Below the pieces are notes generated by a model. The model was not told where the DNA came from and ran no database searches. It was given only the letters and a program-made list of their open reading frames with translations. A program made the position numbers and the translations under genes. 64,000 bases of DNA, taken from NCBI GenBank assembly GCA_016204045.1, contig JACQLQ010000001.1:193579-257578 (forward strand). The letters are read 5' to 3'. Below are positions 2,084 to 47,371 of the stretch, piece by piece (the first letter of the stretch is position 1; each line of letters starts with the position of its first letter). The stretch comes from Parcubacteria group bacterium (lineage in GTDB: Bacteria > Patescibacteriota > Minisyncoccia > Phycocordibacterales > UBA2135).

Positions 2084-2482
2084 GGGGGATGATCGGCTTC
2101 GACAAGGGGCGTACTTTGAAACGCGCAGGTAGAGCCGGGGTAACTCTTTAAAAGGCCCCAAACCACAAGTGCAAACAAATTGCGCTCAATCGTTTCTCCT
2201 TACTTTAAGGCGAACGACTTTGCGTTCGTGTACGCTTAAGCGACGAACGTGAACGCTCTCACTTTTGATTTCTGGTAGATGGATGAGAGTGTTATACCAC
2301 CAGGATAGGCAAACGACTCGTTCCGATCGTTTCGCTGAAACCAAGGAGCTCGATGCAGTTCGATTTTGTATCTTTCATACGATCTGCATTTAAATCCGTC
2401 ACATGACGGACTGAAAAATACTAAACCTGTAGATCCGTTTTAAACAACTCTTTGCACGCGGGTTCGATTCCCGCCATCTCCA
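2084..2482 (+). ncRNA. ssrA: tmRNA (ssrA)
   Basis: The 5' end GGGGGAUGAUCGGCUUCGACAAGGG matches the tmRNA consensus GGGGcUGAUUcuGGaUUCGACgGG. The 3' end GCGGGUUCGAUUCCCGCCAUCUCCA is a tRNA-Ala-like T-arm and acceptor. The gene sits next to smpB. Putative tag reading frame GCG AAC GAC TTT GCG TTC GTG TAC GCT TAA at 2210-2239. Confidence 0.85.
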
Positions 2483-2604
2483 TTCGACTCGCCTCTTGAG
2501 GCTCGCTCATGGCAAGCCACCCAAGAAGTCATGCTATTCGCATGGCTTTTTGATTTACGCGAGACGCGAGTCGAATGCCCTGAGCGTTAGTCGAAGGGCT
2601 CGTG

Positions 2605-16689: not shown

Positions 16690-17124
16690 ATGCAAAAAAT
16701 GATTCATTGTGCGTGTACAGAGCGTTGTGCTGATGTCGCACCGCTTGTTCTTCGCATTGCTACAGGTCTCGTCTTTTTTATACACGGGTACACGAAACTC
16801 ACGACGCAGGGTGTCCCAGGAGTCTCAGAGTTTCTGGGCTCTCTCGGGTTTCCAGCCCCAGATCTGTTTGCAATAGTTCTACTTACTGTTGAGATCGTCG
16901 GAGGTATTGCGTTGATTGCCGGTCTCTTCACGCACTGGGCGGCAAAGCTTACTGGTATTGTGGCCATTGTTGCCCTTGTGTTAGTTCACGTCAGCAACGG
17001 CTTTTTTGTGCAGAATGGTGGCTATGAGTTTGTTCTTCTCCTCATTGCCGCACTAGTCTCAATCATGGTAACTGGTCCAGGAAAGTACTCGCTCGATCAC
17101 CACTGGCTCAAGAAGCACATGTAA
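16690..17124 (+). CDS. DoxX-family membrane protein
   Basis: LVLRIATGLVFFIHGYTKL and four TM helices, typical of DoxX. Confidence 0.75.
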   Translation: MQKMIHCACTERCADVAPLVLRIATGLVFFIHGYTKLTTQGVPGVSEFLGSLGFPAPDLFAIVLLTVEIVGGIALIAGLFTHWAAKLTGIVAIVALVLVHVSNGFFVQNGGYEFVLLLIAALVSIMVTGPGKYSLDHHWLKKHM

Positions 17125-17186: not shown

Positions 17187-17429
17187 ATGAACACTGAGAC
17201 AAAAATTAATCCTTCTATGATTGGGGTGGGAATTCTCGTCCTCGCTCTTATCGTTGCCGGCCTTTGGTATTTGACCAAGAATAAAGAGGGGTCGGGGGGC
17301 GTTGTGCAAAGCGTCGAAGAAGTAAGCGATGCAGTACCAGAAATCTCGACTAACCCGGCCGAAGATGTGCCGGAGGTGAACCCTGTCGATCGGGCAAACC
17401 CCTTTAAATACGATAATCCACTCCGATAA
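17187..17429 (+). CDS. small membrane-anchored acidic protein (80 aa)
   Basis: One TM helix (IGVGILVLALIVAGLWYL). Stop codon abuts the start of the next gene. Confidence 0.5.
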   Translation: MNTETKINPSMIGVGILVLALIVAGLWYLTKNKEGSGGVVQSVEEVSDAVPEISTNPAEDVPEVNPVDRANPFKYDNPLR

Positions 17430-17432
17430 CCT

Positions 17433-19955
17433 ATGTCTCTTGCTCTATCTAAAAAAGTCTTAGCCCTCCTAATTCTTTCTGTTGGGCTATTTGCAAGTTT
17501 CGGAATGATTGCCTTTGCTGCGGCGCAGGACTCCTCAATCTCCCTCAAGAAAGATGAAAGCAGCGGTTTCTACACTCTTACCTTGAGAGACCCCGACGGT
17601 ATCCAGGAATTTTCGATGAATCCCGCGAAGGGGTCATCGTACGGAGGTGGGCTTGGCGGCTGCCCAAGATCTTTTAGCAGCAACAACATCGCGGTATTTA
17701 ATGATCTCTCATTTGATCCTGCGATGCCAGCGTACATTATTGACTGTGCCAACAATACCACCAAGCTTGAAATTGGAGCCCCAAAGAACGGCATCGCATC
17801 AAGTAAAATTGTAAAAGAGGAGCCCAAAGAAGATGTCGTCTCTTCTAAAGCGGTAGAACAAAAAGAGGACAAGAAGAGCAATGAGGGTTCGTTAGGAAAC
17901 GTAACATTCCCAGTCAGAGAGTTAGGTAACTGCAAAAACGAAGGAGACTGTCGGACGTATTGCGATAATGCAGACCACGCACGTGAGTGTCTCGCCTTTG
18001 CGAAAAAGCACCAACTTATTTCCGAAGATGAGGAGAAAGACGCCAAGGAAAAGTTTTTGAATGTTCAAAACGGCCCCGGCGGTTGCAACTCGTGGTCTTC
18101 ATGTGAGGCGTATTGTAGCAGTATAGACCGCTTGGACGAATGCATCGCCTTTGCGGAAAAAATGGGGCATGCAGACGAAAAGATACAAGAGGCAAAGAAA
18201 ATTCAGGCATTAGTCAAAAGTGGTAAGCAGTTCCCTGGAGGCTGTAAAGACAGAAACTCCTGCGAGCTTTACTGCGCTGATGTCAACCACATGGACGAGT
18301 GTATCGCTTTTGCGGAAGACGCGGGCTTTATGCCGGAAGAAGAGTTGAGGCAGGCAAAAAAGATATTGCCACTTATGAAGCGTGGGGAAACACCAGGAGG
18401 GTGTACATCAAAGGAGCAATGTGAGAAGTATTGTGAAGCAGAAGGCCATCTTGATGAATGTATAGCCTTTGCAGAAAAAGCAGATCTTCTCTCTGCTGAT
18501 GAAAAAGAAATGATTCGAAAAACCGGCGGCAAAGGGCCAGGGGGCTGTAAGGGCAAAAAGCAGTGTGAGGCATATTGCGAAGCCAACGGTGAGGAATGTT
18601 TTAAGTGGGCACAGGCGAACGGCGTTATGAAAGAAGAGGATTTGGCACGGATGCGAGAGGGGACAGACCGTTTCAGAAAGGAACTTGAGCGAATGCCTCC
18701 CGAGGTTGTCTCGTGTCTGAAGGAAAACATGGGTGAAGAGAACTTCAGCAAAATGTCGAGTGGTGAACCGGTGTTTGACCGCTCACTCGAAGGCAAGATG
18801 AAGGGATGCTTCAGCCAGTTAACTAAGCAAGTGGGTCAACAGCTCAATTCACTTCCACCAGAAGCAGCCGAATGTATCAAAGAAACAGTGGGCGAAGACG
18901 GATTGCGGAAACTTCAGGGTGGTGAGTTTGACCCAACCAAAACTGACTTCAGTGAATTAGAGGGTTGCTTCCAGAAATTACAGGAATCATTTGGCGGACC
19001 CGGAGGATTCGGCGGCCCAGGCGGATGCAAGACACGTGAAGAGTGTGAGGCGTATTGTGAGGAGCATGGTGAAGAATGCCAAGGGTTCGGCCCCCCAGGC
19101 GGTGGTCCCGGAGGTGATTTCCGCGGCGGTGGCCCGGGTGGTTTTTCAGGCCCTGGTGGTTGTACCTCGATAGAGGAGTGTACAAGCTATTGCCAGTCAA
19201 ATCTAGAAGAATGTGAAAAGTTTATGCCGCCTTCGGGAGCTCCCGGAGGGGAGAGGCGCGGCGAAGAGCACCGAGAGTTTCCTGGTGGCGGGGCGACTGA
19301 AGAGCAATTCCCTGGTAGAGGGAGAACTGGCGGTGAGTTCCCCGGTGGGCCAGGAGGATGCAAGACAAAGGAAGAATGTCAACGCGTTTGTGAAGAACAC
19401 CCCGAAGAGTGTCGAGGCTTTAGTGGCGGAGTAGGTGGAGAGGGGAGATTAGACAGCATTCCGCCGCAAGGTAATTCACAAAAGCCGTTTGAACAACCCG
19501 GAAGCGATGAATATCGCAAGCAATACGAAGAGCAGTACAAGGCACAATATCAAAAACAATACGAAGGGCAGTTTGAAGGACGACCGCGAGAGCTCCCAAT
19601 GGAACCTCCGCACAGGGAAGGAGTTGAGATCCAGCAAGAGCAATATCAGAGACAATATGAGGAGCAATACAAAGCGGAGTATCAGAAACAGTTTGAGCAA
19701 CAGCAACAGTATCAATATCAACAAAACACACTGCCGTCACCAGAACCAACCCATCAGGATGTACCAGTGTATCAACAGTACCAACAACCTCCGCAGTCAT
19801 CTGAAACTCAGCAATATTACAAAACAGATGAAGTGAATTTTGTGCCGCCTCCCGCTTCAACCCAAGGGGGAGCAGTGCGGCTCTACCGGGCTCCCAGAGG
19901 GTCACTCTACGAAAATACCAATCAACTCCTCAAGGGTTTTTCTCCTAGTCAATAA
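17433..19955 (+). CDS. secreted cysteine-rich repeat protein (840 aa) of unknown family
   Basis: Signal peptide MSLALSKKVLALLILSVGLFASFGMIAFAAAQ. At least 8 modules matching GGC-x5-C-x2-YC-x5-9-EC. Gly/Pro-rich linkers. C-terminal Q/Y/E-rich low-complexity tail. Confidence 0.8.
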   Translation: MSLALSKKVLALLILSVGLFASFGMIAFAAAQDSSISLKKDESSGFYTLTLRDPDGIQEFSMNPAKGSSYGGGLGGCPRSFSSNNIAVFNDLSFDPAMPAYIIDCANNTTKLEIGAPKNGIASSKIVKEEPKEDVVSSKAVEQKEDKKSNEGSLGNVTFPVRELGNCKNEGDCRTYCDNADHARECLAFAKKHQLISEDEEKDAKEKFLNVQNGPGGCNSWSSCEAYCSSIDRLDECIAFAEKMGHADEKIQEAKKIQALVKSGKQFPGGCKDRNSCELYCADVNHMDECIAFAEDAGFMPEEELRQAKKILPLMKRGETPGGCTSKEQCEKYCEAEGHLDECIAFAEKADLLSADEKEMIRKTGGKGPGGCKGKKQCEAYCEANGEECFKWAQANGVMKEEDLARMREGTDRFRKELERMPPEVVSCLKENMGEENFSKMSSGEPVFDRSLEGKMKGCFSQLTKQVGQQLNSLPPEAAECIKETVGEDGLRKLQGGEFDPTKTDFSELEGCFQKLQESFGGPGGFGGPGGCKTREECEAYCEEHGEECQGFGPPGGGPGGDFRGGGPGGFSGPGGCTSIEECTSYCQSNLEECEKFMPPSGAPGGERRGEEHREFPGGGATEEQFPGRGRTGGEFPGGPGGCKTKEECQRVCEEHPEECRGFSGGVGGEGRLDSIPPQGNSQKPFEQPGSDEYRKQYEEQYKAQYQKQYEGQFEGRPRELPMEPPHREGVEIQQEQYQRQYEEQYKAEYQKQFEQQQQYQYQQNTLPSPEPTHQDVPVYQQYQQPPQSSETQQYYKTDEVNFVPPPASTQGGAVRLYRAPRGSLYENTNQLLKGFSPSQ
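17928..19420 (+). repeat. array of at least 8 degenerate coding repeats, each about 135-150 nt, the 4-Cys module of the gene above
   Basis: Recurring CxxYC...DEC-IAFAE / EEC peptide pattern at 17940, 18085, 18245, 18405, 18545, 19025, 19165 and 19355. Confidence 0.7.
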
Positions 19956-19975: not shown

Positions 19976-20010
19976 TAAAAACTACTCCGACCATAGTCGG
20001 AGTGGTTTTT
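19976..20010 (+). terminator. intrinsic terminator (aaaaactactccgac-cata-gtcggagtggttttt)
   Basis: 15-bp stem followed by a T-run. Confidence 0.8.
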
Positions 20011-20099: not shown

Positions 20100-20771
20100 A
20101 TGAAGACACCAAGACGTGGTGGGGGCCGAAGAATGGTAAAGAGAGGAGCATCTCCTCAAGAGGCAGGTGAACAGCTTTCGGCATTTATTCAGAGCACGGT
20201 TGCCGATGTTGCGAGCGATCTTCTAGGCAGTCTCTGGGGGCGTGTGTACTTGCCTCTAATATTAAAGCGGCGCGTCCTTCTTTTTGGCGTAATCGATGAG
20301 GATGCGGCAGAACGCTTAACGGAGCAATTGTTACTGCTTGATGCAGCGGCGTCTTTTCCCATCACACTTTTCATAAACTCTCGAGGCGGCGACTTTGAAG
20401 AGACGCTCAAGATAGTGGACACCATCCAACATCTTGAGTCGCCTGTTGATGCCGTTGTGGTCGGAAATGCACAGTCGTGCGCGTTCTTCATTCTTCAGGC
20501 ATGTCGGAGAAGGGTCGCCTATCCGCACGCCTCCTTCATGATTCATGGGGTGAGCTTGCCAGACTCACGAATAGACCAGACTGATTTCGGGAGTATTGTG
20601 AGGGGCGCCAAAGATGAGCTAGATACAGTGTTTGAGATGATGGCCAAGAAAAGCGGTCTCTCGCTCTCACGTATCCAGAAATTGAGCAAGAAAGAAAAGA
20701 TCTTGAACGCAGAGGAAGCGCTAAGCTCCAACTTCATCGATACCATATCGAAAAATCGACAGCGCCCATAA
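20100..20771 (+). CDS. clpP: ClpP-family serine protease (S14), with an Arg-rich N-terminal extension
   Basis: The protein aligns with the ClpP core: INSRGGDFEETLKIVDTIQ, followed by the active-site region GNAQSCAFF, followed by MIHG, with a C-terminal EEALSSNFIDTI. The catalytic Ser and His contexts are present. Confidence 0.7.
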   Translation: MKTPRRGGGRRMVKRGASPQEAGEQLSAFIQSTVADVASDLLGSLWGRVYLPLILKRRVLLFGVIDEDAAERLTEQLLLLDAAASFPITLFINSRGGDFEETLKIVDTIQHLESPVDAVVVGNAQSCAFFILQACRRRVAYPHASFMIHGVSLPDSRIDQTDFGSIVRGAKDELDTVFEMMAKKSGLSLSRIQKLSKKEKILNAEEALSSNFIDTISKNRQRP

Positions 20772-36831: not shown

Positions 36832-38004
36832 TTGACTATGGCAGAGTCTCTTCCTTTCGGCACATCAAACACGCTTGGACGTGCGAGGGGTTTCGTACTT
36901 GATTTTATTGATGACCTCTTAAAGAGGAAAGACAAAAGCGTGGTTGGTGTCGACATCGGCTCTTCGTCAATTAAAGTCGTCCAGCTAAAGAAAAGGGGCG
37001 GCAAGGCCGTTCTCGAGACCTATGGTGAACTGTCCCTCGGACCTTACGCGAATCTTGAGGTTGGGCAAGCGACAAAGCTCCCACAGGAGAAGGTGAGCGA
37101 GGCTCTTATCGACCTCATGCGCGAAGCAAATGTCGATGCCGTCGCCGGAGGCCTCGCTATACCGCTTTCGCAGAGTCTACTTTCTATCATCGAAATTCCG
37201 CTCGTTTCAGAACGGAAGATTGCTGACATGGTCCCACTTGAGGCACGCCGCTATATTCCTGTACCCATTTCTGAAGTCACGCTTGACTGGAGGATTGTAC
37301 CAGAGCTCGACAGCACGTCGAGGGTGGCGGAGGGCGAAGGGGACAAGGCGGCTCTTAAGAAAGTGAAAGTGCAGATTGCCGCCATTCACAATGAAGTCAT
37401 CAGCCGCTATTCGAACATTGCAGCGACCAGCGGACTCGCGATTGATTTTCTGGAAATCGAAGCATTCAGTCTGATACGCGCGCTTGATATTCGAGCGCGA
37501 GAGGCCGTCCTCATCATTGACATTGGCGCCGGCTCGACAAAGGTGGTCATCGCGGAAGGGGAGTTGCCGTTTCGATCGCACATCATTAATCGCGGCGCGC
37601 AAGATATTACACAAGCACTTTCAAAATCCCTTGGCGTCTCGGTCCTTAAGGCCGAGGAGATGAAACGCACGGTCGGGCTTACGGATGGTGTAGAGAATCA
37701 GAATACTCGCGACGTGATACGGCTTATCATGCAAGGTATCTTCTCTGAAGCGAATCGGATTCTCCTCGACTATGAGCGTTCATATAGTGTCGCCGTTAGC
37801 AAGGTTATCTTGTCCGGAGGAGGAGCACTTCTCCGTGGCACGCTCGAACTCGCAAAAGAGAATTTCGAAGTCGAGGTTGCTTTGGCGCATCCATTTGCAA
37901 ACATCAACATCCCAGCATTTATGGAGGGGACACTCAAAGAAGCAGGTCCAAGCTTTTCTGTTGCACTTGGCATTGCGATGAGAAAGCTTCAAGAAATCGA
38001 ATAA
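36832..38004 (+). CDS. pilM: type IV pilus assembly protein PilM
   Basis: Actin-like ATPase N-terminus VVGVDIGSSSIKVVQL. Confidence 0.85.
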   Translation: MTMAESLPFGTSNTLGRARGFVLDFIDDLLKRKDKSVVGVDIGSSSIKVVQLKKRGGKAVLETYGELSLGPYANLEVGQATKLPQEKVSEALIDLMREANVDAVAGGLAIPLSQSLLSIIEIPLVSERKIADMVPLEARRYIPVPISEVTLDWRIVPELDSTSRVAEGEGDKAALKKVKVQIAAIHNEVISRYSNIAATSGLAIDFLEIEAFSLIRALDIRAREAVLIIDIGAGSTKVVIAEGELPFRSHIINRGAQDITQALSKSLGVSVLKAEEMKRTVGLTDGVENQNTRDVIRLIMQGIFSEANRILLDYERSYSVAVSKVILSGGGALLRGTLELAKENFEVEVALAHPFANINIPAFMEGTLKEAGPSFSVALGIAMRKLQEIE

Positions 38005-38007
38005 ATT

Positions 38008-38604
38008 ATGGTAGACGTAAAAACAGCTTTTATACCAAAAAAGACGCTTCCCACAATCGGCACTCGCCGAAGCGAGCCGGTTGGCTTGTTCATGGTCGGC
38101 GGTCTTGTCATCTTCTTCTCCTCACTTCTCATTGCCGGAGGGCTGTATTTCTATCGCGCGCTCCTCACCACTCAAATTGAGGATATGAGCGAAGACGTGG
38201 TGATCGCAAAAGAAGAAATCCAGCCCAAGCTCATCGAAAGCATCACGCGTTTCGATAAGCGTGTCACCATCGCTGAAACATTGATAGGGAAGCACCTTGT
38301 CGCAACCCCCCTCTTCTTCCTTTTGGAGGACGCAACGCTTCCCACGGTTAGGTACGATCGTTTCTCTGCAAATGTTGATGACGACGGCAGCATTCTTCTC
38401 ACCCTCACGGGCGAGGCGCGCACGTACAAGGATCTTGCGGTACAAGCAGACATCTTTGGTCGCGACGAAAACATTACCGAACCCATTTTTTCGGGGCTCC
38501 GTCTCAACAATACAGGAAATGTGGCATTTCAGTTCACAGGGAGACTGAAGCCGGCATTCTTGCTTCTCGAAAGCAACCTAACTCCAACTCCCGCAACCCC
38601 CTAG
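38008..38604 (+). CDS. pilN: PilN-like pilus assembly protein
   Basis: N-terminal TM helix followed by a periplasmic coiled region. Position after pilM. Confidence 0.6.
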   Translation: MVDVKTAFIPKKTLPTIGTRRSEPVGLFMVGGLVIFFSSLLIAGGLYFYRALLTTQIEDMSEDVVIAKEEIQPKLIESITRFDKRVTIAETLIGKHLVATPLFFLLEDATLPTVRYDRFSANVDDDGSILLTLTGEARTYKDLAVQADIFGRDENITEPIFSGLRLNNTGNVAFQFTGRLKPAFLLLESNLTPTPATP

Positions 38605-38620
38605 TTGTTAAACAAACTAC

Positions 38621-39160
38621 ATGGCACGCTATTTTTTCCCCATCATTCTCGTCTTAATCGCTGTCGGCGTTTATCTCGCCGCCATTGATCCTATGTATAC
38701 TGATATCAAGGACCTTTCCGAAAAACGACGCCTCCTGAGTGGGGCACTGGCAAACTCTCGGCAGATTGCCGAGAGACGTGACGAGCTTCTCGGAGCGTTT
38801 AATAGTGTTGCGTCGGCAGCCATCGAACGCCTTCGTAGAGTTTTGCCCGACAACGTAGATAACGTTCGGCTCATTCTCGAGATAGACAGCATCGCCGCGC
38901 GATACGGCATGGCGCTCCAAGATGTTGTTATTGATACAGACACACGAGCGCTTGAGGGGGCGCTTGGGCCCGACATGCATCCCTACGGGACGCTCGGTCT
39001 CCACTTCACGGTTACGGGTTCCTATGCCGCGTACATGCAATTCCTCGCGGATTTGGAGCGAAGTTTGCGCTTGGTAGATATCACGGAGCTTTCATTTGTC
39101 GCAGGGAGTACCGACTTCCACCAATATGAGGTCGGAGTTAAGACGTATTGGCTTAAATAA
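38621..39160 (+). CDS. pilO: PilO-like pilus assembly protein
   Basis: TM helix plus coiled-coil. Position in the pilMNO operon. Confidence 0.6.
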   Translation: MARYFFPIILVLIAVGVYLAAIDPMYTDIKDLSEKRRLLSGALANSRQIAERRDELLGAFNSVASAAIERLRRVLPDNVDNVRLILEIDSIAARYGMALQDVVIDTDTRALEGALGPDMHPYGTLGLHFTVTGSYAAYMQFLADLERSLRLVDITELSFVAGSTDFHQYEVGVKTYWLK

Positions 39161-39161
39161 T

Positions 39162-39461
39162 ATGTCAAAAACAGTCATCAACATTGTCCTCATTGTACTT
39201 GTCGCGACGGGGCTTTTCTTTGGTTACAACTTTTTCTTTGGCGGCGAGAGTGAAGGCGCACTCCTGACGACGGTTGGGCAAGCCTCGACCGAACAAAACG
39301 CCGCCGGCGAGCTCCTCGCCATATTAAAGACGCTTGAGCAGCTCACACTTGATGCGAGTTTTCTCGAGACAAGTGTTTTTAAAGCACTCCGCGATTTTAG
39401 CGTTGCTTTGCCCGAAAGTGTGCCGGGCCGGAGGAATCCGTTTGCTCCGCTAGGGCAATAG
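39162..39461 (+). CDS. small TM protein, PilP-like by position
   Basis: One TM helix. Sits between pilO and pilB. Confidence 0.45.
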   Translation: MSKTVINIVLIVLVATGLFFGYNFFFGGESEGALLTTVGQASTEQNAAGELLAILKTLEQLTLDASFLETSVFKALRDFSVALPESVPGRRNPFAPLGQ

Positions 39462-39545
39462 GTATAGGCGGGCGACCAGAAGTTATTTGACCAGACACAT
39501 AACCCCAAGGATGTATGTGTTCGGTGCTTCGAATTTTAAATCACC

Positions 39546-41255
39546 ATGCCATTTTTAGACTATCTCTTACAGAAAGGCGTCATAAAGGCGAAAGAAGTTG
39601 AAACCGTACGCAATGAAGCTGGCGAAAACAACGAGGCGCCAGAGAGTGTTTTGATGCGACGCGGCATGGGGAGGGATGAACTCCTGAAACTCAAGTCAGA
39701 ATACTTTAGCGTGCCCTACAAGTCGGTTGACCCAAGCAAAGTGCCGCTCGATGTCATGAAGCTTATCCCCGAAGAGTCTGCGAAGCATTACAAGTTTGTA
39801 CCGGTCGGAGTTGAAGAAGGGGTGCTACAAGTTGGAATGGTGGAGCCGGACAACATCGACGCCAAGGATGCGTTGCAGTTTATTTCTGCAAAAGTGGAGA
39901 TGCCGTACAAGCTTTTCTTGATTGGTGAGGACGATTTTAACGCAGTCTTCGAGAACTATCAGAGCTTATCGGGCGAGGTTACCAAGGCACTCTCGCAGTT
40001 GGAGACAGACGAGCCCGTGCTGGGAAGTGTCGCAAAAGAAGAGCCTGAAAAAGCGAAACCAGGAGTCACCATCGTAGAGGAAGCGCCAATCTCGAAGATC
40101 GTTGCGGTTATTTTGAAACACGCCGTCGAAGGCGGTGCTTCTGACATTCATATCGAACCTACCGAAGAAAAAGTGCAGGTGCGCTTTCGTGTCGGCGGAC
40201 TCCTCCAGACAAGCCTCCTCCTTCCTCGAGATGTGCTTCCGGCTGTTGTTGCCCGAATAAAAGTGTTGGCAGGGCTACGCCTCGATGAAAAAAGGAAGCC
40301 TCAAGACGGTAGTTTTGGCGCACGCATCGAAAAGAGAAAAATCGACTTCCGTGTTTCGACACTACCCACATACTATGGAGAAAAGGTAGTGATGCGTATT
40401 CTCGACCCAGGCATGGGTATTAAGAAACTTGAGGAAACTGGGCTCACTAAGGAGGGGATGGACATGATAAGAGCTGCGCTCCACCTACCTTTCGGACTCA
40501 TTTTGCTTACTGGTCCCACCGGCTCTGGAAAGACGACCACACTCTACGCCATGTTGAACGAGCTCAATCGCGAGGTAGACAACGTCGTTTCACTCGAAGA
40601 CCCAGTTGAGTACTTGATTAAGGGGGTTTCGCAGTCACAGGTGCGCCCGGAAATCGGTTACACGTTTGCAACCGGACTCCGATCTATCTTCCGCCAAGAC
40701 CCAGACATTATTTTGGTTGGTGAGATCCGTGACAAGGAAACAGCAACGCTCGCTATTCAGGCCGCACTCACGGGACACCTCGTCTTGTCGACAATACACA
40801 CAAACAATGCCGCCGGCGTGGTGCCCCGTCTCGTTGACATGGGGATAGACCCGTATCTCATCGCGCCCACATTGGTGCTTGCCGTTGCACAGCGACTGGT
40901 CCCTATACTTTGTGATGAAAAAAAAGCTATTCCCATTGAGGGCGCAATGAAAGAAATGATTGATCGGCAGTTTGCAGAGATTCCCGCAGAGTTTCGCAAG
41001 AATCTTCCGCATGGGACCCAAGTGTATGAGGCGGCGCCATCTTCTACGTGTCCGACGGGTACACGAGGGCGAGTGGGTGTCTATGAAATGTTTACCATCA
41101 ACAAGGAAATGGAGCGCGTGATTCTCGAGAACCCTGTTGAAGAGGCGATTTTGAAAGTCGCGCGAAATAAGGGAATGCTTACCATGAAAGACGATGCGAT
41201 GATTAAGGCCATTCAAGGTAAGATTTCGTTCCTCGAAGTGAATCGATTTGAGTAG
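39546..41255 (+). CDS. pilB: type IV pilus assembly ATPase PilB (GspE family)
   Basis: GSPII_E N-terminal domain. Walker A LLTGPTGSGKTTTL. Asp and His boxes. Tetracysteine CxxC...CPTG zinc motif. Confidence 0.9.
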   Translation: MPFLDYLLQKGVIKAKEVETVRNEAGENNEAPESVLMRRGMGRDELLKLKSEYFSVPYKSVDPSKVPLDVMKLIPEESAKHYKFVPVGVEEGVLQVGMVEPDNIDAKDALQFISAKVEMPYKLFLIGEDDFNAVFENYQSLSGEVTKALSQLETDEPVLGSVAKEEPEKAKPGVTIVEEAPISKIVAVILKHAVEGGASDIHIEPTEEKVQVRFRVGGLLQTSLLLPRDVLPAVVARIKVLAGLRLDEKRKPQDGSFGARIEKRKIDFRVSTLPTYYGEKVVMRILDPGMGIKKLEETGLTKEGMDMIRAALHLPFGLILLTGPTGSGKTTTLYAMLNELNREVDNVVSLEDPVEYLIKGVSQSQVRPEIGYTFATGLRSIFRQDPDIILVGEIRDKETATLAIQAALTGHLVLSTIHTNNAAGVVPRLVDMGIDPYLIAPTLVLAVAQRLVPILCDEKKAIPIEGAMKEMIDRQFAEIPAEFRKNLPHGTQVYEAAPSSTCPTGTRGRVGVYEMFTINKEMERVILENPVEEAILKVARNKGMLTMKDDAMIKAIQGKISFLEVNRFE

Positions 41256-41273
41256 TGTAGTATACTTGTATGT

Positions 41274-41393
41274 ATGGACAAGACAGTTCTCATTGTTGAC
41301 GACGACCCCGGTACCACGACGCCTCTGGTGTCGGCTACGGGGCGGGATGAAGTATCTCTAACCATGCACGCAGTATATGACCTCCGAAGCTAA
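41274..41393 (+). pseudogene. 5' fragment of a response-regulator gene (MDKTVLIVDDDPG...*), a partial duplicate of the start of the next gene
   Basis: ctcattgttgacgacgac duplicates ttatagtagacgacgat of the downstream gene. Ends in a stop after 39 codons. Confidence 0.4.
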
Positions 41394-41772
41394 TTCCAAC
41401 GTCCTTATAGTAGACGACGATAAATTTCTGCTCGACATGTATTCCCTCAAGTTTAAGGAAGCAGCGTTCCGGGTTGAGACGGCTGATTCGAGCGAGGCTG
41501 CGTATGAAGCCGTCAAAAAGGGAGGGCAAGACGTGGTCCTCTTGGACATCCTCATGCCTTCTATGGATGGGTTTGAACTCCTGAAACGTATTAAGGGCGA
41601 AGGATTAGGACAAACCACGAAGTTCATTGTACTTTCGAATCTTGGCGAACCGTCTGATATAGAAAAAGCGAGGGAGCTTGGCGCCGACGGCTATATTGTT
41701 AAAGCGACAGCAACGCCAACTGAAGTTGTCGAAGTGGTTCGCAAAGTGTTGCTGTCAGAAAACAAGAAATAA
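41377..41772 (+). CDS. CheY-like response regulator (PilH-like) embedded in the pilus operon
   Basis: The sequence reads VLIVDDD, followed by VVLLDILMPSMDGFELLKRIK, followed by KFIVLSNLG, followed by YIVKA. Confidence 0.85.
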   Translation: MTSEANSNVLIVDDDKFLLDMYSLKFKEAAFRVETADSSEAAYEAVKKGGQDVVLLDILMPSMDGFELLKRIKGEGLGQTTKFIVLSNLGEPSDIEKARELGADGYIVKATATPTEVVEVVRKVLLSENKK

Positions 41773-41779
41773 AATTTTT

Positions 41780-42859
41780 ATGGATAACGCGCACGTGACA
41801 ATCGAAAGGCTTGCCGACACTGTCTCCAAAGAGGGTGGTTCCGACCTGCACCTTCATGATGGTGGGCATCCCATTATTCGTGTTGCTGGTTCGCTCATTC
41901 CGCTAGTTAAGGAGCCGGTGCTTTCTGTGACGGACATGCAGGGCATCGCAGAGTACCTTTTGGGCAAGGAACGGTACGAACGCTTTCTTCTCGAGCGCGA
42001 AATCGACTTTTCCTATACTACGACCAAGGATGGAGGTGGAGAAAAGGCTCGTTTTCGTGGTAATGCCTATTTTGAGCGGGGGAGTATCTCCATCGCTCTT
42101 CGGCTTATTCCCGCGAAGATACAGACACTCGATGAATTGAACCTACCGAAGACACTTGAGATATTCGCGCGTCGAGAGCAAGGGTTTTTCTTGGTTGTCG
42201 GTCCTGTGGGTCACGGCAAGTCAACAACACTTGCCTCACTTGTCGATACCGTGAACCGCGAACGCGCAGCGCACATCTTGACCATCGAGGATCCGATTGA
42301 GTTCACCTACACTCCAGCGCAGTCCTTGATTGATCAGCGAGAGGTTGGTATAGATACGGCCGATTTTGCTACGGCGCTTCGGGCGATGTTTCGTCAAGAC
42401 ATTGACGTCGTCATGATTGGAGAAATGCGCGGACCGGCGACTATTTCTGCCGCGGTTACAGCCGCAGAGACAGGGCATCTTGTTTACTCAACACTTCACA
42501 CCAACAACGCGGCACAGACAGTAGACCGTATTATCGACTCTTTCCCCGGAGAACAGCAAAACCAGATCAAAAGCCAGCTAGCGCAAAGCTTGGCGGGTAT
42601 TTTCTCGCAACGCCTGATCCCACGCATTTCAGGCGGACTCATCCCAGCGTATGAGCTTCTCATCAATAACAGCGCGGTCTCAAACCTTATCCGTGAAGGC
42701 CGTGTATATGAACTCAATGTCGTTATAGAGACGGGCGCCGGAGAAGGTATGATTGATATGAATCGCACACTAGCCGAACTCGTACGCCGTGGTGAAATTA
42801 CTGTAGAAAATGCGCAACTGTACTCGCCCAACCCGCAAGGGTTAGGCAGGCTAGTGTAA
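41780..42859 (+). CDS. pilT: twitching-motility (retraction) ATPase PilT
   Basis: Walker A VVGPVGHGKSTTL, Asp/His boxes, and the PilT-specific C-terminal region. Confidence 0.9.
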   Translation: MDNAHVTIERLADTVSKEGGSDLHLHDGGHPIIRVAGSLIPLVKEPVLSVTDMQGIAEYLLGKERYERFLLEREIDFSYTTTKDGGGEKARFRGNAYFERGSISIALRLIPAKIQTLDELNLPKTLEIFARREQGFFLVVGPVGHGKSTTLASLVDTVNRERAAHILTIEDPIEFTYTPAQSLIDQREVGIDTADFATALRAMFRQDIDVVMIGEMRGPATISAAVTAAETGHLVYSTLHTNNAAQTVDRIIDSFPGEQQNQIKSQLAQSLAGIFSQRLIPRISGGLIPAYELLINNSAVSNLIREGRVYELNVVIETGAGEGMIDMNRTLAELVRRGEITVENAQLYSPNPQGLGRLV

Positions 42860-42863
42860 TCCT

Positions 42864-44069
42864 ATGCTTTTCGAATACAAGGCACTAACTAAAGAAGGCG
42901 AGGAGAGGGGCGGATCGATTGAAGCCCTGAACCGAGATGTCGCCATTCGCTCGCTACAGGAGCGAGGGCTTACTATTGTTTCTATTTCAGGAGGAGACAA
43001 ACAACCCTTTTGGCAAATACGCCTTACGTGGTTTGATCGCGTACCCAACCGAGACGTAGTCATTCTCTCTCGCCAGATCGCCACACTTTTTCTTGCCGAA
43101 GTGTCTGCGCTTCGGGTGTTTCGCCTTCTTGCCGACGAATCAGAAAACGTACTCTTGCGAAGCATTCTTTCTGATGTTGCCCAAGAAATTCAAGGAGGTT
43201 CTGCCATATCCGATGCTATGGCAAAGCACCCGAGTGTCTTCTCGCATTTCTATGTGAACATGGTTCGCGCGGGTGAGGAGGCGGGGAAATTGAACGAAAC
43301 ATTTGCCTATTTGGCAGATTACCTTGACCGTTCCTACGCGCTCACCATAAAGACGAGGAATGCCCTTATCTATCCCGCCTTCGTACTCACAGTTTTTCTT
43401 GTCGTCATTGTGCTCCTCCTGACGTTGGTGTTCCCACGCCTCACCTCGATTTTGACCGAGGCAGGACAAGATATTCCTATTTACACGCAAATCGTTATCT
43501 CAATCAGCAATTTTCTCGTGAACTACGGCATCTTCCTCCTCGTTCTTTTGGCGGCAGGAGGCATCTGGGCATGGAAGTTTGGTGGGACCGAGCGGGGTAA
43601 GATGTATTTCAGTCGCCTTATTATCACGGTGCCTGTTTTGGGCGGCCTCACGCGAAAGCTTTATCTTTCGCGCATAGCTGACAACATGTACACCATGCTT
43701 ACAAGCGGCATATCGATTGTCCGCGCGCTCGAGGTAACTTCGTCCGTGGTGGGGAACGCGGTCTATCGCGAGCTTCTTATTGAGGCCGCAGAAGGAGTCA
43801 AGACAGGGCGCTCGATTTCCGAAATGTTTACGGGACACAGGGAAATCCCGAATATCATGGTTCAGATTTTGAAAGTCGGAGAAGAAACGGGAGAGCTGGG
43901 TAATATTTTGAAAACCCTGTCTGGCTTTTACCAACGAGAAGTAAACGATTCGATCGACACCTTCATCGGGCTTATAGAGCCGGCATTAATCGTGGGACTT
44001 GCCGCCTGTGCGGGGCTTCTCCTCTCATCCGTCCTTTTGCCGATTTACAATCTCTCTTCAGGAATATAA
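42864..44069 (+). CDS. pilC: type IV pilus inner-membrane platform protein PilC (GspF family)
   Basis: Two T2SSF repeats and 3 TM helices. Confidence 0.85.
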   Translation: MLFEYKALTKEGEERGGSIEALNRDVAIRSLQERGLTIVSISGGDKQPFWQIRLTWFDRVPNRDVVILSRQIATLFLAEVSALRVFRLLADESENVLLRSILSDVAQEIQGGSAISDAMAKHPSVFSHFYVNMVRAGEEAGKLNETFAYLADYLDRSYALTIKTRNALIYPAFVLTVFLVVIVLLLTLVFPRLTSILTEAGQDIPIYTQIVISISNFLVNYGIFLLVLLAAGGIWAWKFGGTERGKMYFSRLIITVPVLGGLTRKLYLSRIADNMYTMLTSGISIVRALEVTSSVVGNAVYRELLIEAAEGVKTGRSISEMFTGHREIPNIMVQILKVGEETGELGNILKTLSGFYQREVNDSIDTFIGLIEPALIVGLAACAGLLLSSVLLPIYNLSSGI

Positions 44070-44203
44070 TCAAATGTTTTTCCACATTGCCTTTGCATTG
44101 AGAGGGCTCCTTGCTATACTATTACCTAGTGAAGGGATTCTATCTCTTTACCAGAAAACATGTTTTTTGGTCGAGAATGCAATTAATGGATAATTTTTAC
44201 ATT

Positions 44204-44674
44204 ATGTTTTACTCACAACGAAAACAAGGAGAAACTCGCGGTTTTACATTGATTGAACTTTTGGTCGTCATCTCGATTATTGGGCTTCTTTCGGCAGTTG
44301 TGTTGGCATCTTTGAACACAGCCCGTCAAAAGTCACGTGACGCAAAGCGCGTTGCTGACATCAAACAGCTTCAATTGGCGCTCGAGCTTTACTTTGATGA
44401 CGAGGGGAACTACCCGGCAAACATTACAGACGTTGGGAACTTGATAACCCCTGGTTATCTCCCAGCTCTTCCAAAGGATCCGACCGATGACGCTGTGTAT
44501 CCTTACACCCAACTTTCAAGTGGTGCTGACTACCACCTCGGGGCGAGCTTAGAGGACGACCAGCATGTAGCCCTTGATGCAGATGTCGACGCTGACAGCA
44601 CCAACGTTGACGGTGCAGACGCCGACGGCTGTGCGGATGAGGCAACTAGGTTTTGCTACGACGTAGCGCCGTAA
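44204..44674 (+). CDS. type IV major pilin (prepilin)
   Basis: Leader MFYSQRKQGETRG followed by FTLIELLVVISIIGLL (class III signal). C-terminal Cys pair. Confidence 0.85.
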   Translation: MFYSQRKQGETRGFTLIELLVVISIIGLLSAVVLASLNTARQKSRDAKRVADIKQLQLALELYFDDEGNYPANITDVGNLITPGYLPALPKDPTDDAVYPYTQLSSGADYHLGASLEDDQHVALDADVDADSTNVDGADADGCADEATRFCYDVAP

Positions 44675-44741
44675 CATTAGCAGTAGTTAGTTTGTACATA
44701 ACACACGCCCGCTTCAAGCGGGCGTGTGTTATTATAAAGGG

Positions 44742-45584
44742 ATGGATAGCATCGTATTTTTCTATTTTGTACTCGGCCTCTTCGTGGGCAGCTTTCTCAA
44801 TGTTGTCGTTCTGCGCCTCAACACAGGACGTGACATGGTGCACTCTCGGTCTAGCTGTTTTTCGTGCGGAAAAACACTTTCATGGTATGAGCTCATCCCG
44901 CTCGTCAGTTTCTTTGTACAGAACGGCCGCTGTCGGAGATGTAAAAGCAAAATATCATGGCAATACCCCATCGTAGAACTTACGAGTGGGTTCTTATTTG
45001 CATCTGTCGCGTGGCACGAGTTTGGGATTTGGAATGGCGATGTTTTAATAGGCCAGATTCTAGATTCTATATTCTACATACTTATTTTCTCTGTGCTTCT
45101 TGCCATTACCGTGTATGACGCCCGCCACAAAATCATCCCCAATATACTCGTCTATGTTTTCGATGCGCTCGCGTTCCTCACTGTTTTAGGCTTTGGAAAT
45201 TGGAGCTTGCTTGGAGATTCGTCATTAAAAATTGAAAATTTCATCACAGGACTTATCTTTTTTTCTTTTTTTGCGGGTATTTGGTTTTTATCGCAAGGGC
45301 GGTGGATGGGTTTTGGCGACGCAAAGCTGGCACTAGGACTGGGCTGGCTCCTCGGACCGTCACTCGGCATTGCGGGGCTGGTCCTTTCCTTTTGGATAGG
45401 TGCCCTCTTCGGGCTTGCCGCGCTCTCAATCAGACGTTTGTTTTCGAGATGGGGGCGAGATACAATATCATTACAAAGTGAAATTCCGTTTGCGCCATTC
45501 CTCGTCGTTGGCGCCTTCCTCGCATTCTTGTTTGATATCGGCTTCTTTGATCTCCAGAATCTCTTTGTCCTGTATGTTTTTTAG
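44742..45584 (+). CDS. pilD: prepilin peptidase PilD (A24 family)
   Basis: N-terminal CxxC...CxxC zinc finger (CFSCGK...CRRCKS). Polytopic membrane core with catalytic Asp regions. Confidence 0.85.
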   Translation: MDSIVFFYFVLGLFVGSFLNVVVLRLNTGRDMVHSRSSCFSCGKTLSWYELIPLVSFFVQNGRCRRCKSKISWQYPIVELTSGFLFASVAWHEFGIWNGDVLIGQILDSIFYILIFSVLLAITVYDARHKIIPNILVYVFDALAFLTVLGFGNWSLLGDSSLKIENFITGLIFFSFFAGIWFLSQGRWMGFGDAKLALGLGWLLGPSLGIAGLVLSFWIGALFGLAALSIRRLFSRWGRDTISLQSEIPFAPFLVVGAFLAFLFDIGFFDLQNLFVLYVF

Positions 45585-46203
45585 TCCACCTACTCATTTT
45601 GCCGCAGGTGTGCCCGCACGGGGGCGCAACACACGCCGCTACGCGCAAGGCTTCACGTTGGTGGAACTCATTGTGACAATCTCCATCTTTGTCATCATCT
45701 CTGCCATTACCCTCTTCAACTATCCGAGCTTCTCTAGTCGCATTGCGTTGGACAACTTGGCTCACGAGATAGCTCTGACAGTACGTGAGGCGCAGGTGTT
45801 TGGCACCAGTGTTCGGGAATTCGGCGCGGGGAGCGGTACGTTCCCTGGACATGGGATTTACTTCGCGACGAGCGACAATACACACTTCACTCTTTTTGCC
45901 GATGTCGATTCAGATGGGTTTTACGGGGGGTGTGTAGGTGATGTCTGCGCTGAGCAGGTGGACGAGTACGCCATGCAACAAGGGCACACCCTGTCACAGT
46001 TGTGTGTTTACGCCTCTCCGGGAGGGGGGTGTATTTCGGTTCCCGCACTTCACATTACGTATGTGCGTCCCAATCCGGAAGCGCAGATCCGAGATAATGG
46101 TGGTTCTCTCTATGCGTATGCCGCGATCGCCGTGTCCTCTTCTCGCGGCGATACGCGAACGGTTGAAGTGTGGTCAAACGGGCAGATAACTGTCCGTCGA
46201 TAG
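45574..46203 (+). CDS. minor pilin / pseudopilin
   Basis: Prepilin motif GFTLVELIVTISIFV. Confidence 0.7.
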   Translation: MFFSPPTHFAAGVPARGRNTRRYAQGFTLVELIVTISIFVIISAITLFNYPSFSSRIALDNLAHEIALTVREAQVFGTSVREFGAGSGTFPGHGIYFATSDNTHFTLFADVDSDGFYGGCVGDVCAEQVDEYAMQQGHTLSQLCVYASPGGGCISVPALHITYVRPNPEAQIRDNGGSLYAYAAIAVSSSRGDTRTVEVWSNGQITVRR

Positions 46204-46217
46204 CTTTTTCTAACCAG

Positions 46218-46787
46218 ATGCTAAAGTCTAAAAGTCAAAAGTCGCAAAAGGGGTTCACGGTGCTTGAGATGATCGTTGCGCTCGGGCTTTTTACCGTTGT
46301 CGTCACGGTCGCCGTCGGTGCATTAACTGCACTCGGTACCGCCTCAGGAAAGGCGCAGTCATCCCGCATCGTTATGGATAACTTGAATTTCACCGTTGAG
46401 AACATTGCGCGAAGTATGCGCGTGGGTACGAAGTATCATTGCGGATCAGGAGGAACTCTTACGGACCCACTACCTTGCCAGGTTAATGGAGAACAGTTCA
46501 TAGCATTTTTGGATTCTCAATCAAGGACGGTCGCCTTCCGCCTCAACGCAGGTCGCATTGAGAAATCGACAAATTGTAGCCCTTTTTTGTGCAGTGACTG
46601 GCTCGGCATTACCGACCCTGCACTCACCATTACGGAATTTCGTTTCTTTGTCACTGGGGCATTCTCGGGGGACGGTGTTCAGCCGAAGGCGCTTTTAGTG
46701 GTAGTGGGCACTGCTGGCAGAAAAGACATTGAGGAGGCGACATTTAATCTGCAAACACTCATTACTCAGCGTCTCTTAGATTCATAA
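46218..46787 (+). CDS. minor pilin / pseudopilin
   Basis: Prepilin motif KGFTVLEMIVALGLF. Confidence 0.7.
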   Translation: MLKSKSQKSQKGFTVLEMIVALGLFTVVVTVAVGALTALGTASGKAQSSRIVMDNLNFTVENIARSMRVGTKYHCGSGGTLTDPLPCQVNGEQFIAFLDSQSRTVAFRLNAGRIEKSTNCSPFLCSDWLGITDPALTITEFRFFVTGAFSGDGVQPKALLVVVGTAGRKDIEEATFNLQTLITQRLLDS

Positions 46788-46795
46788 CGTAACGT

Positions 46796-47314: not shown

Positions 47315-47371
47315 TTCCGGTTGTTAACTTTCAGTTTTTAGCTGTTAGCAAAGCCTGTTCAATTTAAACGC

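What the first reader, a model, noticed from the sequence alone, without database searches (positions are those of the whole stretch)
17433..19955. 840-aa secreted protein built from at least 8 copies of an undescribed 4-cysteine module
After a clear signal peptide the protein repeats a roughly 45-aa unit eight times. The unit has the pattern GG-C-x5-C-x2-Y-C-x5-9-(D/E)EC, often followed by IAFAE(K/D). The eight copies are:
- NCKNEGDCRTYC...RECLAFAK
- GGCNSWSSCEAYC...DECIAFAE
- GGCKDRNSCELYC...DECIAFAE
- GGCTSKEQCEKYC...DECIAFAE
- GGCKGKKQCEAYC...EECFKWAQ
- GGCKTREECEAYC...EECQGF
- GGCTSIEECTSYC...EECEKF
- GGCKTKEECQRVC...EECRGF

Four Cys per unit implies two disulfides, fitting an extracytoplasmic location. 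Later units are joined by GPGG-rich linkers, and the protein ends in a Q/Y/E low-complexity tail (QYEEQYKAQYQKQYEGQFEG... QYQYQQ). I do not recognise the module as any named domain. It is probably a new extracellular disulfide-stabilised repeat. The architecture suggests an adhesin, S-layer-associated or host/episymbiont-contact protein.
Basis: seen in the sequence. Interest (0 to 1): 0.78.

Follow-up and report, generated by a model that had tools for sequence, protein, structure and literature searches.

The report
Disulfide-stapled helical-repeat surface protein of Parcubacteria
This gene encodes a secreted protein of ultra-small groundwater bacteria (Parcubacteria) built from a previously undescribed cysteine-locked helical repeat; it is always paired with a tiny membrane-protein gene, and the pair probably forms a conserved cell-surface structure of unknown function.

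Summary
ORF 17433..19955 (+) encodes an 840-aa protein with a signal peptide and exactly eight C-x5-C-x3-C-x6/8-C units (chance about 0.03). No Pfam, NCBIfam, PDB-sequence or PDB-fold match was found.

- **Units are helical repeats.** Units 1-5 are three-helix repeats of about 53 aa that stack into a confident helical rod (pLDDT 84-89). They are orthologous position by position and as conserved as RecG.
- **Other ordered parts.** An Ig-like beta-sandwich precedes the rod, and a second repeat type with 2 Cys per copy (two copies) follows it.
- **Variable half.** Only the C-terminal half varies: short units on Gly/Pro linkers, then a Q/Y tail. Relatives carry LamG or Kazal domains there.
- **Distribution.** The module is confined to about 1,900 protein clusters, and all named sources are Parcubacteria.
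- **Partner gene.** In 75 of 79 loci an 80-aa membrane protein with 3-4 NP-phi motifs lies directly upstream (median gap 4 nt).

Best reading: this is a two-gene surface structure in which the small protein anchors a disulfide-stapled stalk that displays a fast-evolving tip. The anchoring step is inferred, not shown. It is a new variant of the secreted disulfide-braced helical-repeat proteins. Interest is moderate.

The parts
17187..17429 (+). Partner gene: an 80-aa single-pass membrane protein. It has an N-terminal TM helix and an acidic, Pro-rich tail with four NP-phi motifs (TNPAEDVPEVNPVDRANPFKYDNPLR).
   Evidence: ORF, sequence. Its stop codon lies 3 nt before the large gene's ATG. The same small protein lies directly upstream in 75 of 79 testable loci, with a median gap of 4 nt. 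No Pfam hit. 100% identical to 'hypothetical protein HY455_01240 [Parcubacteria group bacterium]'.
17433..19955 (+). Large gene: 840-aa secreted, acidic protein with 38 Cys (mature form about 89 kDa, pI 4.9).
   Evidence: More than 1000 homologs. Colinear ortholog L004.
17433..17522 (+). Signal peptide (aa 1-30): MSLALSKK, a hydrophobic run, then AFA/AAQ.
   Evidence: Read from the sequence. A-x-A sites come directly before the conserved I-x-FP-x-x-ELG-x-C motif in relatives. No predictor was run.
17535..17810 (+). Ig/FN3-like beta-sandwich domain (aa 35-126) with an invariant Cys pair, C77/C105.
17820..17885 (+). Disordered, charged linker (aa 130-151).
   Evidence: pLDDT below 50 in the model.
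17901..18692 (+). Rod of five long 4-Cys units (aa 157-420). Each has a GPGG cap, helix A (holding C2 and C3), helix B (holding C4, then xAFAEK) and helix C. Cys cores lie at 17931-17990, 18084-18143, 18243-18302, 18402-18461 and 18546-18599.
   Evidence: coordinates. (pLDDT about 85-95, three helices per unit). (two-unit model, pLDDT 89.4). (unit-by-unit orthology). (fixed spacing of 51/54/53/48 aa in relatives).
18681..18992 (+). Second repeat type: two helical units of about 52 aa with 2 Cys each (aa 417-468 and 470-520; PPE..C(L/I)K...G.E...EGCF).
   Evidence: Seen in the sequence. hhalign of unit X1 against X2 gives probability 99.1%, E 1.3e-18, with no relation to the 4-Cys unit. Helical at high pLDDT.
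18993..19427 (+). Three short 4-Cys units (cores at 19026-19079, 19161-19214 and 19359-19412) strung on GPGG-type Gly/Pro linkers.
   Evidence: An 18-nt micro-repeat in the linker. The number of such units varies between relatives, giving totals of 5 to 13.
19506..19820 (+). Q/Y/E-rich low-complexity tract with a 4-aa period ((Q/E)-Y-x-x).
   Evidence: 12-nt repeats at 19519-19570 and 19637-19669. Similar tracts recur in many relatives, but this region is remodelled even in the closest ortholog.
19878..19952 (+). C-terminal peptide RLYRAPRGSLYENTNQLLKGFSPSQ. It is a degenerate copy of the family's C-terminal amphipathic motif (...SLLxxLLxxFxxLLxR).
   Evidence: Conserved with L004. The family-wide C-terminal motif is seen.

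Best explanation
The two genes 17187..17429 and 17433..19955 form one operon. It encodes a cell-surface structure specific to the Parcubacteria group.

**The large protein.** It is exported by Sec and folded outside the cell with about 19 disulfides. Its conserved half is an Ig-like domain followed by a rigid, acidic rod. The rod is made of five three-helix repeats, each locked by four cysteines, plus two copies of a second, 2-Cys helical repeat. This repeat type has not been described before. Its variable half is a flexible Gly/Pro tether that carries three minimal Cys units and ends in a Q/Y-rich sticky tail. In relatives that position holds LamG or Kazal domains instead.

**The small protein.** It is a single-pass membrane protein whose extended tail carries 3-4 NP-phi motifs.

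**Proposed mechanism (inferred).** The helical rod binds that tail, much as TPR and Sel1-like solenoids bind extended peptides. This would hold the stalk on the membrane. The fast-evolving distal part would reach through the envelope to contact the surroundings or a host.

**Shown:** the anatomy, the fold class, the family distribution, the conservation pattern and the gene pairing.

**Inferred:** disulfide bonding (rather than metal binding), the rod-tail interaction, the orientation of the protein and the biological role.
For: **Repeat and novelty.**
- Eight units against 0.03 expected by chance.
- 926 units in 120 homologs, with all four Cys always kept.
- No Pfam, NCBIfam or PDB-sequence hit.

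**Fold.**
- AF2 gives pLDDT 84.5 for aa 26-530 and 89.4 for two units, with three helices per unit.

**Disulfides are plausible.**
- Cys occur in even, invariant sets in every domain, including the 2-Cys domains.
- MdbA-like oxidoreductase and VKOR families are enriched in CPR (PMC6744442).

**Gene pair.**
- The small gene is directly upstream in 75 of 79 loci.
- The median gap is 4 nt, and 51 of 80 gaps fall within +/-10 nt.
- The pairing also holds in divergent architectures.
- No other neighbour is conserved.
- The partner is present whether or not the beta-sandwich is (43 of 83 loci against 75 of 79). The only universally shared candidate docking surface is therefore the helical array.

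**Conserved stalk, variable tip.**
- The helical core is 44-48% identical where RecG is 38-43%.
- In L004 the core is 83% and RecG 82%, while the C-terminal part is about 30% and is remodelled by indels.
- The only cargo domains in relatives are LamG and Kazal.

**Distribution.** 1,868 representative clusters carry the module, and 343 GTDB species genomes encode a relative. Every lineage-level name is in the Parcubacteria group.
Against: - No direct evidence exists for an interaction between the two proteins.
Metal binding by the four clustered Cys is therefore not excluded.
- The number of NP-phi motifs (3-4) does not track the number of units (5-13), which argues against simple one-motif-per-unit docking.
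- The topology of the small protein is ambiguous by the positive-inside rule.
- The protein has no recognisable cell-wall anchor, and which end is proximal to the cell is unknown.
- There are no expression, localisation or abundance data.
Confidence: 0.45

Rival explanations
1. Metal-binding protein. Each 4-Cys unit would coordinate a metal ion (a Zn, Fe or Cu Cys4 site). The protein would then be an extracellular metal buffer, metal scavenger or redox protein, not a disulfide-stapled scaffold.
For: - Four invariant Cys converge from a loop and two helices.
- A His is frequent in the C3-C4 loop: 52% in x8 units, and N/H in x6 units. The units are very acidic.
- Metal or redox genes lie nearby in some loci. 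DoxX is next to the pair in the window, and L001 has DoxX plus a thioredoxin-like gene. L002 has an ABC-3 transporter, and L003 has a Cu-ATPase, DUF411 and a multicopper oxidase.
Against: - Those neighbours are not conserved across 83 loci.
- There are no CxxC knuckles or known metal-site motifs.
- The beta-sandwich and the 2-Cys repeats carry invariant Cys pairs. These cannot form Cys4 sites but do fit disulfides.
- The protein is extracytoplasmic, and CPR have MdbA/VKOR machinery.
- AF2 folds the units confidently without any ligand.
Confidence: 0.12
2. Classical fast-evolving adhesin or host-contact protein. The Cys units would act only as spacers, and their number would vary between strains.
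For: - The C-terminal half is hypervariable, and the count of short units differs between species.
- Relatives carry LamG and Kazal domains.
- It has a Q/Y-rich tail.
- CPR bacteria are thought to be episymbionts (abstracts).
Against: - The core (five units plus 2-Cys repeats) is fixed in number and orthologous unit by unit. It is as conserved as RecG across candidate-phylum-level lineages.
- The gene is single-copy in the loci recovered.
- An obligatory membrane partner points to a built-in envelope structure.
Confidence: 0.2
3. Self-assembling envelope lattice (S-layer-like) or cell-wall structural protein. The rods would pack laterally or cross-link through disulfide exchange, and the small protein would be its membrane tether.
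For: - Housekeeping-level conservation, wide distribution in the group and an acidic pI of 4.9, which is typical of S-layer proteins.
- Rigid rod plus Ig-like domain.
- The short Cys units on Gly/Pro linkers recall minicollagen Cys-rich domains, which polymerise by disulfide reshuffling (abstract of PMC4863159).
Against: - There is no similarity to any known S-layer protein or SLH domain.
- There is no evidence of abundance or oligomerisation.
- Long disordered and low-complexity parts are unusual for lattice proteins.
Confidence: 0.15
4. Artefact: a frameshifted fusion of separate ORFs, or chance low-complexity sequence.
For: None found.
Against: - A single uninterrupted ORF.
- Colinear full-length orthologs.
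- More than 1000 homologs with the same architecture.
- A confident predicted fold.
Confidence: 0.01

Closest known systems
Helicobacter cysteine-rich proteins (HcpB/HcpC) and other Sel1-like repeat (SLR) solenoids
   Different: - No sequence relation: there is no Sel1 or TPR Pfam hit even at E<=10.
- The unit here has three helices and about 53 aa with four Cys (two putative disulfides) and a GPGG cap. SLR units are two-helix repeats of about 36 aa with one disulfide.
- This protein has a dedicated membrane-protein partner gene.
- It is restricted to Parcubacteria.
TPR and HAT helical-repeat scaffolds
   Different: They are cytoplasmic, lack cysteines and have two-helix 34-aa repeats. There is no sequence match.
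Small disulfide-rich helical domains (CHCH twin-Cx9C/Cx3C proteins; Euplotes pheromones)
   Same: They have short helices pinned by disulfides and a Cx3C element within one helix. Two of 59 units gave a marginal Pfam hit to E_raikovi_mat at E 0.017.
   Different: The hits are below significance. The Cys pattern C-x5-C-x3-C-x6/8-C is different. Those domains are single and free-standing rather than stacked repeats, and they are eukaryotic.
Cnidarian minicollagen Cys-rich domains on Pro/Gly-rich linkers
   Same: Units 6-8 are Cys modules of about 20 aa separated by Gly/Pro-rich segments. This beads-on-a-string layout recalls the minicollagen Cys-rich domains flanking collagen/polyproline stretches (abstract of PMC4863159; otherwise from my own knowledge).
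   Different: The Cys number and pattern differ (6 Cys in minicollagen), there is no homology, and there is no evidence of intermolecular disulfide polymerisation here.

Membership tests
Sel1-like repeat / Hcp family | Sequence match to the Sel1 repeat profile (Pfam Sel1); a two-helix repeat of about 36-44 aa | tested here: not met
   No Sel1 or TPR hit for the whole protein at E<=10, or for 59 single units. AF2 shows three helices per unit of about 53 aa.
Sel1-like repeat / Hcp family | Superhelical alpha/alpha solenoid fold similar to HcpC or HcpB | tested here: inconclusive
Kazal-type inhibitor domain | Match to PF00050 or PF07648 over the unit | tested here: not met
   The window protein has no Kazal hit. 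In relatives the Kazal hits lie between 4-Cys units as separate inserted domains.
LamG domain-containing proteins (the name NCBI gives many relatives) | Presence of a Laminin_G_3 (PF13385) domain | tested here: not met
   The window protein has no LamG hit. Many relatives have one near the C-terminus.
Zinc-ribbon, metallothionein or Fe-S Cys4 metal sites | CxxC knuckles or a known cluster motif; metal bound | tested here: not met
   There is no CxxC in the protein. The spacing C-x5-C-x3-C-x6/8-C fits no Pfam metal-site family beyond noise. Metal occupancy itself cannot be tested with these tools.
CHCH (twin Cx9C / twin Cx3C) helical hairpins | Two helices, each carrying a CxnC pair that forms two inter-helix disulfides | tested here: not met
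   Only helix A carries a Cx3C pair. Helix B has one Cys, and C1 lies in the preceding loop.
Anti-phage defence systems or phage proteins | Match to PADLOC or PHROG models | tested here: not met
   There are no PADLOC hits. PHROG gives only noise, at E>=0.09 and for the small protein only.
The uncharacterised Parcubacteria superfamily defined here | Signal peptide, then I-x-(F/Y)P-x-x-ELG-x-C, then at least four units GPGG-C-x4/5-C-x2-(Y/F)-C-x6-9-C-x2-F at a 48-54 aa period | tested here: met
   consensus of A7.
The uncharacterised Parcubacteria superfamily defined here | Small TM protein with an NP-phi repeat tail encoded directly upstream | tested here: met
   In the window the small gene is 17187..17429 and its stop is 3 nt before the large gene's ATG. 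75 of 79 loci show the same arrangement.

The most novel reading that the evidence does not exclude
The gene pair encodes a so-far unrecognised two-component surface organelle that is shared across the Parcubacteria. A membrane peptide with tandem NP-phi motifs would be clasped by a new class of disulfide-stapled three-helix solenoid. The solenoid would form a rigid stalk and carry an elastic, rapidly diversifying tip (LamG, Kazal or Q/Y modules). This would be the lineage's main device for contacting hosts or surfaces, and a new peptide-recognition repeat fold.
Probability: 0.25. Interest if true: 0.75.

Novelty: new variant of a known kind. Interest (0 to 1): 0.55.

Why it matters
Parcubacteria are among the most abundant uncultivated bacteria in groundwater. 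Most of the protein families that set them apart are unannotated membrane or surface proteins (PMC6744442).

This cassette is widespread in the group and is conserved at the level of a DNA-repair helicase. It still has no name, no Pfam family and no structural relative.

Defining it would give three things:
- a new domain family, and a second smaller one, for annotating about 1,900 protein clusters;
- a concrete two-protein target for studying how these ultra-small cells build their envelope or attach to partners;
- a compact disulfide-locked helical repeat that may interest protein engineers.

If the cysteines bound metal instead, it would point to an unexpected extracellular metal or redox function.

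Tried and rejected
- **Known-domain searches.** I scanned the whole protein and 59 single units against Pfam-A, and the whole protein against NCBIfam. I scanned both proteins of the pair against PADLOC and PHROGs. Only sub-threshold noise came back: UTP20_C at E 0.24, AtDEF-like at 0.015, E_raikovi_mat at 0.017.
- **PDB by sequence.** I searched with the single sequence and with a unit profile. The best E-values were 0.77 and 0.085, and both alignments were meaningless.
- **Kazal as the identity of the unit.** Rejected. Kazal hits in relatives are separate inserts.
- **Cys-loss patterns to deduce disulfide pairing.** Uninformative. All four Cys are always kept, and the apparent losses were loop-length variants.
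- **Conserved neighbourhood beyond the partner gene.** None was found. DoxX, ABC-3 and copper genes are sporadic.
- **Local disulfide machinery.** No secreted CxxC protein is present in the window.
- **Docking test of the partner tail.** An earlier alignment had also misplaced the small proteins on the signal peptide.
- **Recent DNA duplication of units.** Rejected. There are no long tandem repeats, only micro-repeats in the linkers and tail.
- **Literature.** Four searches for a description of this family in CPR/Parcubacteria papers found none.
Full report
**1. Observation.** The ORF at 17433..19955 (+) is intact and encodes 840 aa. It contains 38 Cys. Shuffling the protein 2000 times gives the pattern 0.027 times on average. 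The module occurs nowhere else in the window. The GPGG-rich linkers and the Q/Y/E tail are present, and the tail has 12-nt micro-repeats. The 4-Cys units themselves are not recent DNA duplications. The remaining six Cys form one pair in an N-terminal domain (C77/C105) and one pair in each of two further repeats (C428/C459, C481/C512). Every domain therefore carries an even, self-contained set of Cys.

**2. Anatomy.** I made an AlphaFold2 model of aa 26-530 from a 72-sequence alignment. It is confident: mean pLDDT 84.5, pTM 0.64.
- aa 35-126 form an eight-stranded beta-sandwich.
- aa 130-151 are disordered.
- aa 170-519 are entirely helical.
- In each of units 1-5, C1 sits in the GPGG-capped loop. 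C2 and C3 lie one helical turn apart in a short helix A. C4 lies in helix B (the ...ECxAFAEK segment). A third helix C leads to the next unit.
- A separate model of units 2-3 gives the same picture (pLDDT 89.4, pTM 0.72).

The unit is thus a three-helix repeat of about 53 aa that stacks into a rod, not a free-standing knot of about 45 aa. The two 2-Cys segments (aa 417-468 and 470-520) are homologous to each other (hhalign probability 99.1%, E 1.3e-18). They are unrelated to the 4-Cys unit, so they form a second repeat type. Units 6-8 are only the Cys core of about 25 aa, set on Gly/Pro linkers. The mature protein is acidic (pI 4.9, about 89 kDa).

**3. Is the module known?** No significant match was found in any of these:
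- Pfam-A for the whole protein (E<=10) or for 59 individual units;
- NCBIfam;
- PDB sequences, by phmmer or with a unit profile;
- PADLOC or PHROGs.

**4. Family and distribution.**
- A search with the whole protein returns more than 1000 homologs (top E 1e-258). Every one that a source names comes from a Patescibacteria/Parcubacteria or unclassified-bacterium MAG and is called 'hypothetical' or 'LamG domain-containing'.
- In 120 of them I count 926 units in two length classes (x8 and x6). The consensus is GPGG-C-K-S-x-E-E-C-E-A-Y-C-...-(D/E)-E-C-x-A-F-A-E-K. All four Cys are always retained, and only loop lengths vary.
- A profile of the long unit, searched against 1.84 billion representative proteins, finds just 1,868 at E<=1e-3 and 1,056 at E<=1e-30. 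The module is therefore confined to one superfamily.
- Most of those representatives lack the N-terminal sandwich. They start, right after an A-x-A signal-peptide site, with I-x-(F/Y)P-x-x-ELG-x-C followed by 6-13 units. In some members the sandwich lies C-terminal to the array.
- A scan of one genome per GTDB species finds 343 loci. All lineage-level names belong to the Parcubacteria group: Sung-, Niyogi-, Kaiser-, Nealson-, Harrison-, Giovannoni-, Taylor-, Nomura-, Lloyd-, Lipton-, Jorgensen- and Colwellbacteria.
- About 28 loci carry a bulk-submission label 'uncultured Candidatus Saccharibacteria', which I could not verify.
- The partner protein is 100% identical to a 'Parcubacteria group bacterium' entry, which identifies the kind of organism the window comes from.

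**5. Conserved core, variable end.** In 57 orthologs with the same spacing (51/54/53/48 aa), each unit of the window protein is most similar to the unit at the same position. Identity is 57-67% on the diagonal against 17-50% off it. The array is therefore ancient and fixed. In loci that also carry RecG, the helical core is as conserved as RecG or more so (44-48% against 38-43%). In the closest relative, L004, the core is 83% identical and RecG 82%, but aa 521-840 are only about 30% identical. There the tail has been rebuilt by indels, although the proteins stay colinear. That colinearity also rules out a frameshifted fusion. The total number of units ranges from 5 to 13 between species, and the variation is in the short C-terminal units. 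The only recognisable domains fused to the array across the superfamily are LamG and Kazal. Many relatives end in a short amphipathic peptide (...SLLxxLLxxFxxLLxR) or in a distinct C-terminal Cys module. The window protein has a degenerate form of the first.

**6. The partner gene.** An 80-aa ORF (17187..17429) ends 3 nt before the large gene's ATG. It encodes an N-terminal TM helix and an acidic, Pro-rich tail with four NP-phi motifs (TNPAEDVPEVNPVDRANPFKYDNPLR). It has no Pfam hit.
- The same small protein lies directly upstream in three distant loci examined first.
- An HMM finds it in 75 of 79 testable loci, with a median gap of 4 nt (51 of 80 gaps within +/-10 nt). The tails typically carry 3-4 NP-phi motifs.
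- It is also present next to divergent architectures that lack the sandwich.
- No other neighbouring gene is conserved. RecG, the CCA-adding enzyme and an ABC ATPase recur in only 7-11 loci.
- The sandwich is detectable in 43 of 83 loci, while the partner is nearly universal. If the two proteins touch, the shared surface must therefore be the helical array.

**7. Mechanism.** Shown here: a Sec-type N-terminus, a Cys-paired multi-domain layout, a confident helical-rod fold, housekeeping-level conservation of the rod, a hypervariable distal half, and a translationally coupled membrane-protein partner.

Inferred:
- (a) *The Cys form disulfides.* This is supported by the even Cys sets in every domain, including the 2-Cys ones. 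It is also supported by the MdbA-like oxidoreductase and VKOR families reported as enriched in CPR (PMC6744442).
- (b) *The rod binds the partner's extended NP-phi tail.* The analogy is with TPR and Sel1-like solenoids, which bind extended peptides in their groove (PMC3851747 and the Luthy et al. 2004 title cited there).
- (c) *The result is a membrane-held stalk.* It would present a flexible Gly/Pro tether and a variable tip: Q/Y-rich here, LamG or Kazal elsewhere.

I give about 0.85 to 'secreted, disulfide-rich, new helical-repeat family in a conserved two-gene cassette'. I give about 0.35 to the specific anchor-and-stalk mechanism. The overall figure is 0.45.

**8. Rivals.**
A frequent His in the C3-C4 loop and sporadic metal or redox neighbours speak for it. 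The non-conservation of those neighbours, the absence of any CxxC and the Cys pairs in the other domains speak against it.
- *A classical variable adhesin* fits only the C-terminal half.
- *An S-layer-like lattice* is compatible with the acidity, conservation and rigidity, but nothing supports it directly.
- *An artefact* is excluded.

**9. What could not be done.** I had no coordinates for Cys geometry, no AFDB fold search, no signal-peptide predictor and no expression data.

**10. Verdict.** The interpretation needs revision. This is not a string of independent 45-aa knots in a generic adhesin. It is a conserved, Parcubacteria-restricted, two-gene surface system built around a new disulfide-braced three-helix repeat. 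That makes it a new variant of the known class of secreted, disulfide-stabilised helical-repeat proteins. Its function is still unknown, and its interest is moderate.

Noticed in passing
window 36832-47881 (+): A complete type IV pilus gene cluster: PilM, two unassigned small membrane proteins, the PilB ATPase, a PilT-like ATPase, PilC, the prepilin peptidase and at least two N-methyl pilins. It lies about 17 kb from the finding and is not linked to the cassette in other loci.
   Followed up: yes
window 16690-17124 (+): A DoxX-family membrane protein with a Cys-rich N-terminus (MIHCACTERC) lies just upstream of the gene pair. DoxX also lies about 3 kb from the homolog in L001, next to a thioredoxin-like gene. 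This hints at a possible thiol or redox link, but it is not conserved across the 83 loci.
   Followed up: partly
L002 4216-5720; L003 385-4623: Metal-handling genes lie directly upstream of the cassette in two distant loci. L002 has an ABC-3 type Zn/Mn transporter. L003 has an HMBD P-type ATPase, DUF411 and a multicopper oxidase. They are sporadic, but they prompted the metal-binding rival.
   Followed up: partly
L011 2061-2369; L013 912-1145: Two Niyogibacteria loci carry a second, more divergent copy of the small NP-phi membrane protein about 1.5 kb upstream of the cassette. I did not examine what lies between the copies.
   Followed up: no
C-termini of relatives, e.g. L010, L019, L021, L022, L041, L044, L051, L077 (last ~35 aa): An alternative conserved C-terminal 4-Cys module (DYCxxFxxxPSCSYVGxxxSQNYxYCKQCFPDK) and a shorter form (CxxFxxAPSCDYVPxxxxxLCxKCK). 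Both differ from the main unit. L024 has this module followed by the amphipathic C-terminal peptide.
   Followed up: no
C-termini of many relatives; window 19878-19952: A short amphipathic C-terminal peptide (...PPPS..SLLxxLLxxFxxLLxR/K) recurs across the family. It looks like a sorting or membrane-association tag but is too short for a TM helix. The window protein has a degenerate version.
   Followed up: no
window 19984-20003: A perfect 8-bp palindromic stem-loop (ACTCCGAC-TATG-GTCGGAGT) lies 30 nt after the stop codon of the large gene. It is probably the operon terminator. The scan reports it on the minus strand, with a T-run.
   Followed up: no
window 20100-20771 (+): The ClpP protease homolog has an unusual Arg/Gly-rich N-terminal extension (MKTPRRGGGRRMVKRG...) ahead of the Pfam CLP_protease match, which starts at residue 48. 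The true start codon may lie further downstream.
   Followed up: no
window 2085-2485; 59643-60691: A tmRNA gene (124 bits), and a cluster of four tRNA genes within about 1 kb. Three more tRNAs lie elsewhere in the window.
   Followed up: no
The large-protein search returned no self hit. It also missed the L004 ortholog, which is 78% identical in the best tblastn segment to aa 26-530 and 61% overall. The 80-aa partner, by contrast, did return a 100% self hit.
   Followed up: no
L084 1-2382 and 2424-2901: In this locus, dockerin-domain proteins and a small toxin-antitoxin-like gene pair lie 1-4 kb upstream of a 1431-aa member of the superfamily.
   Followed up: no
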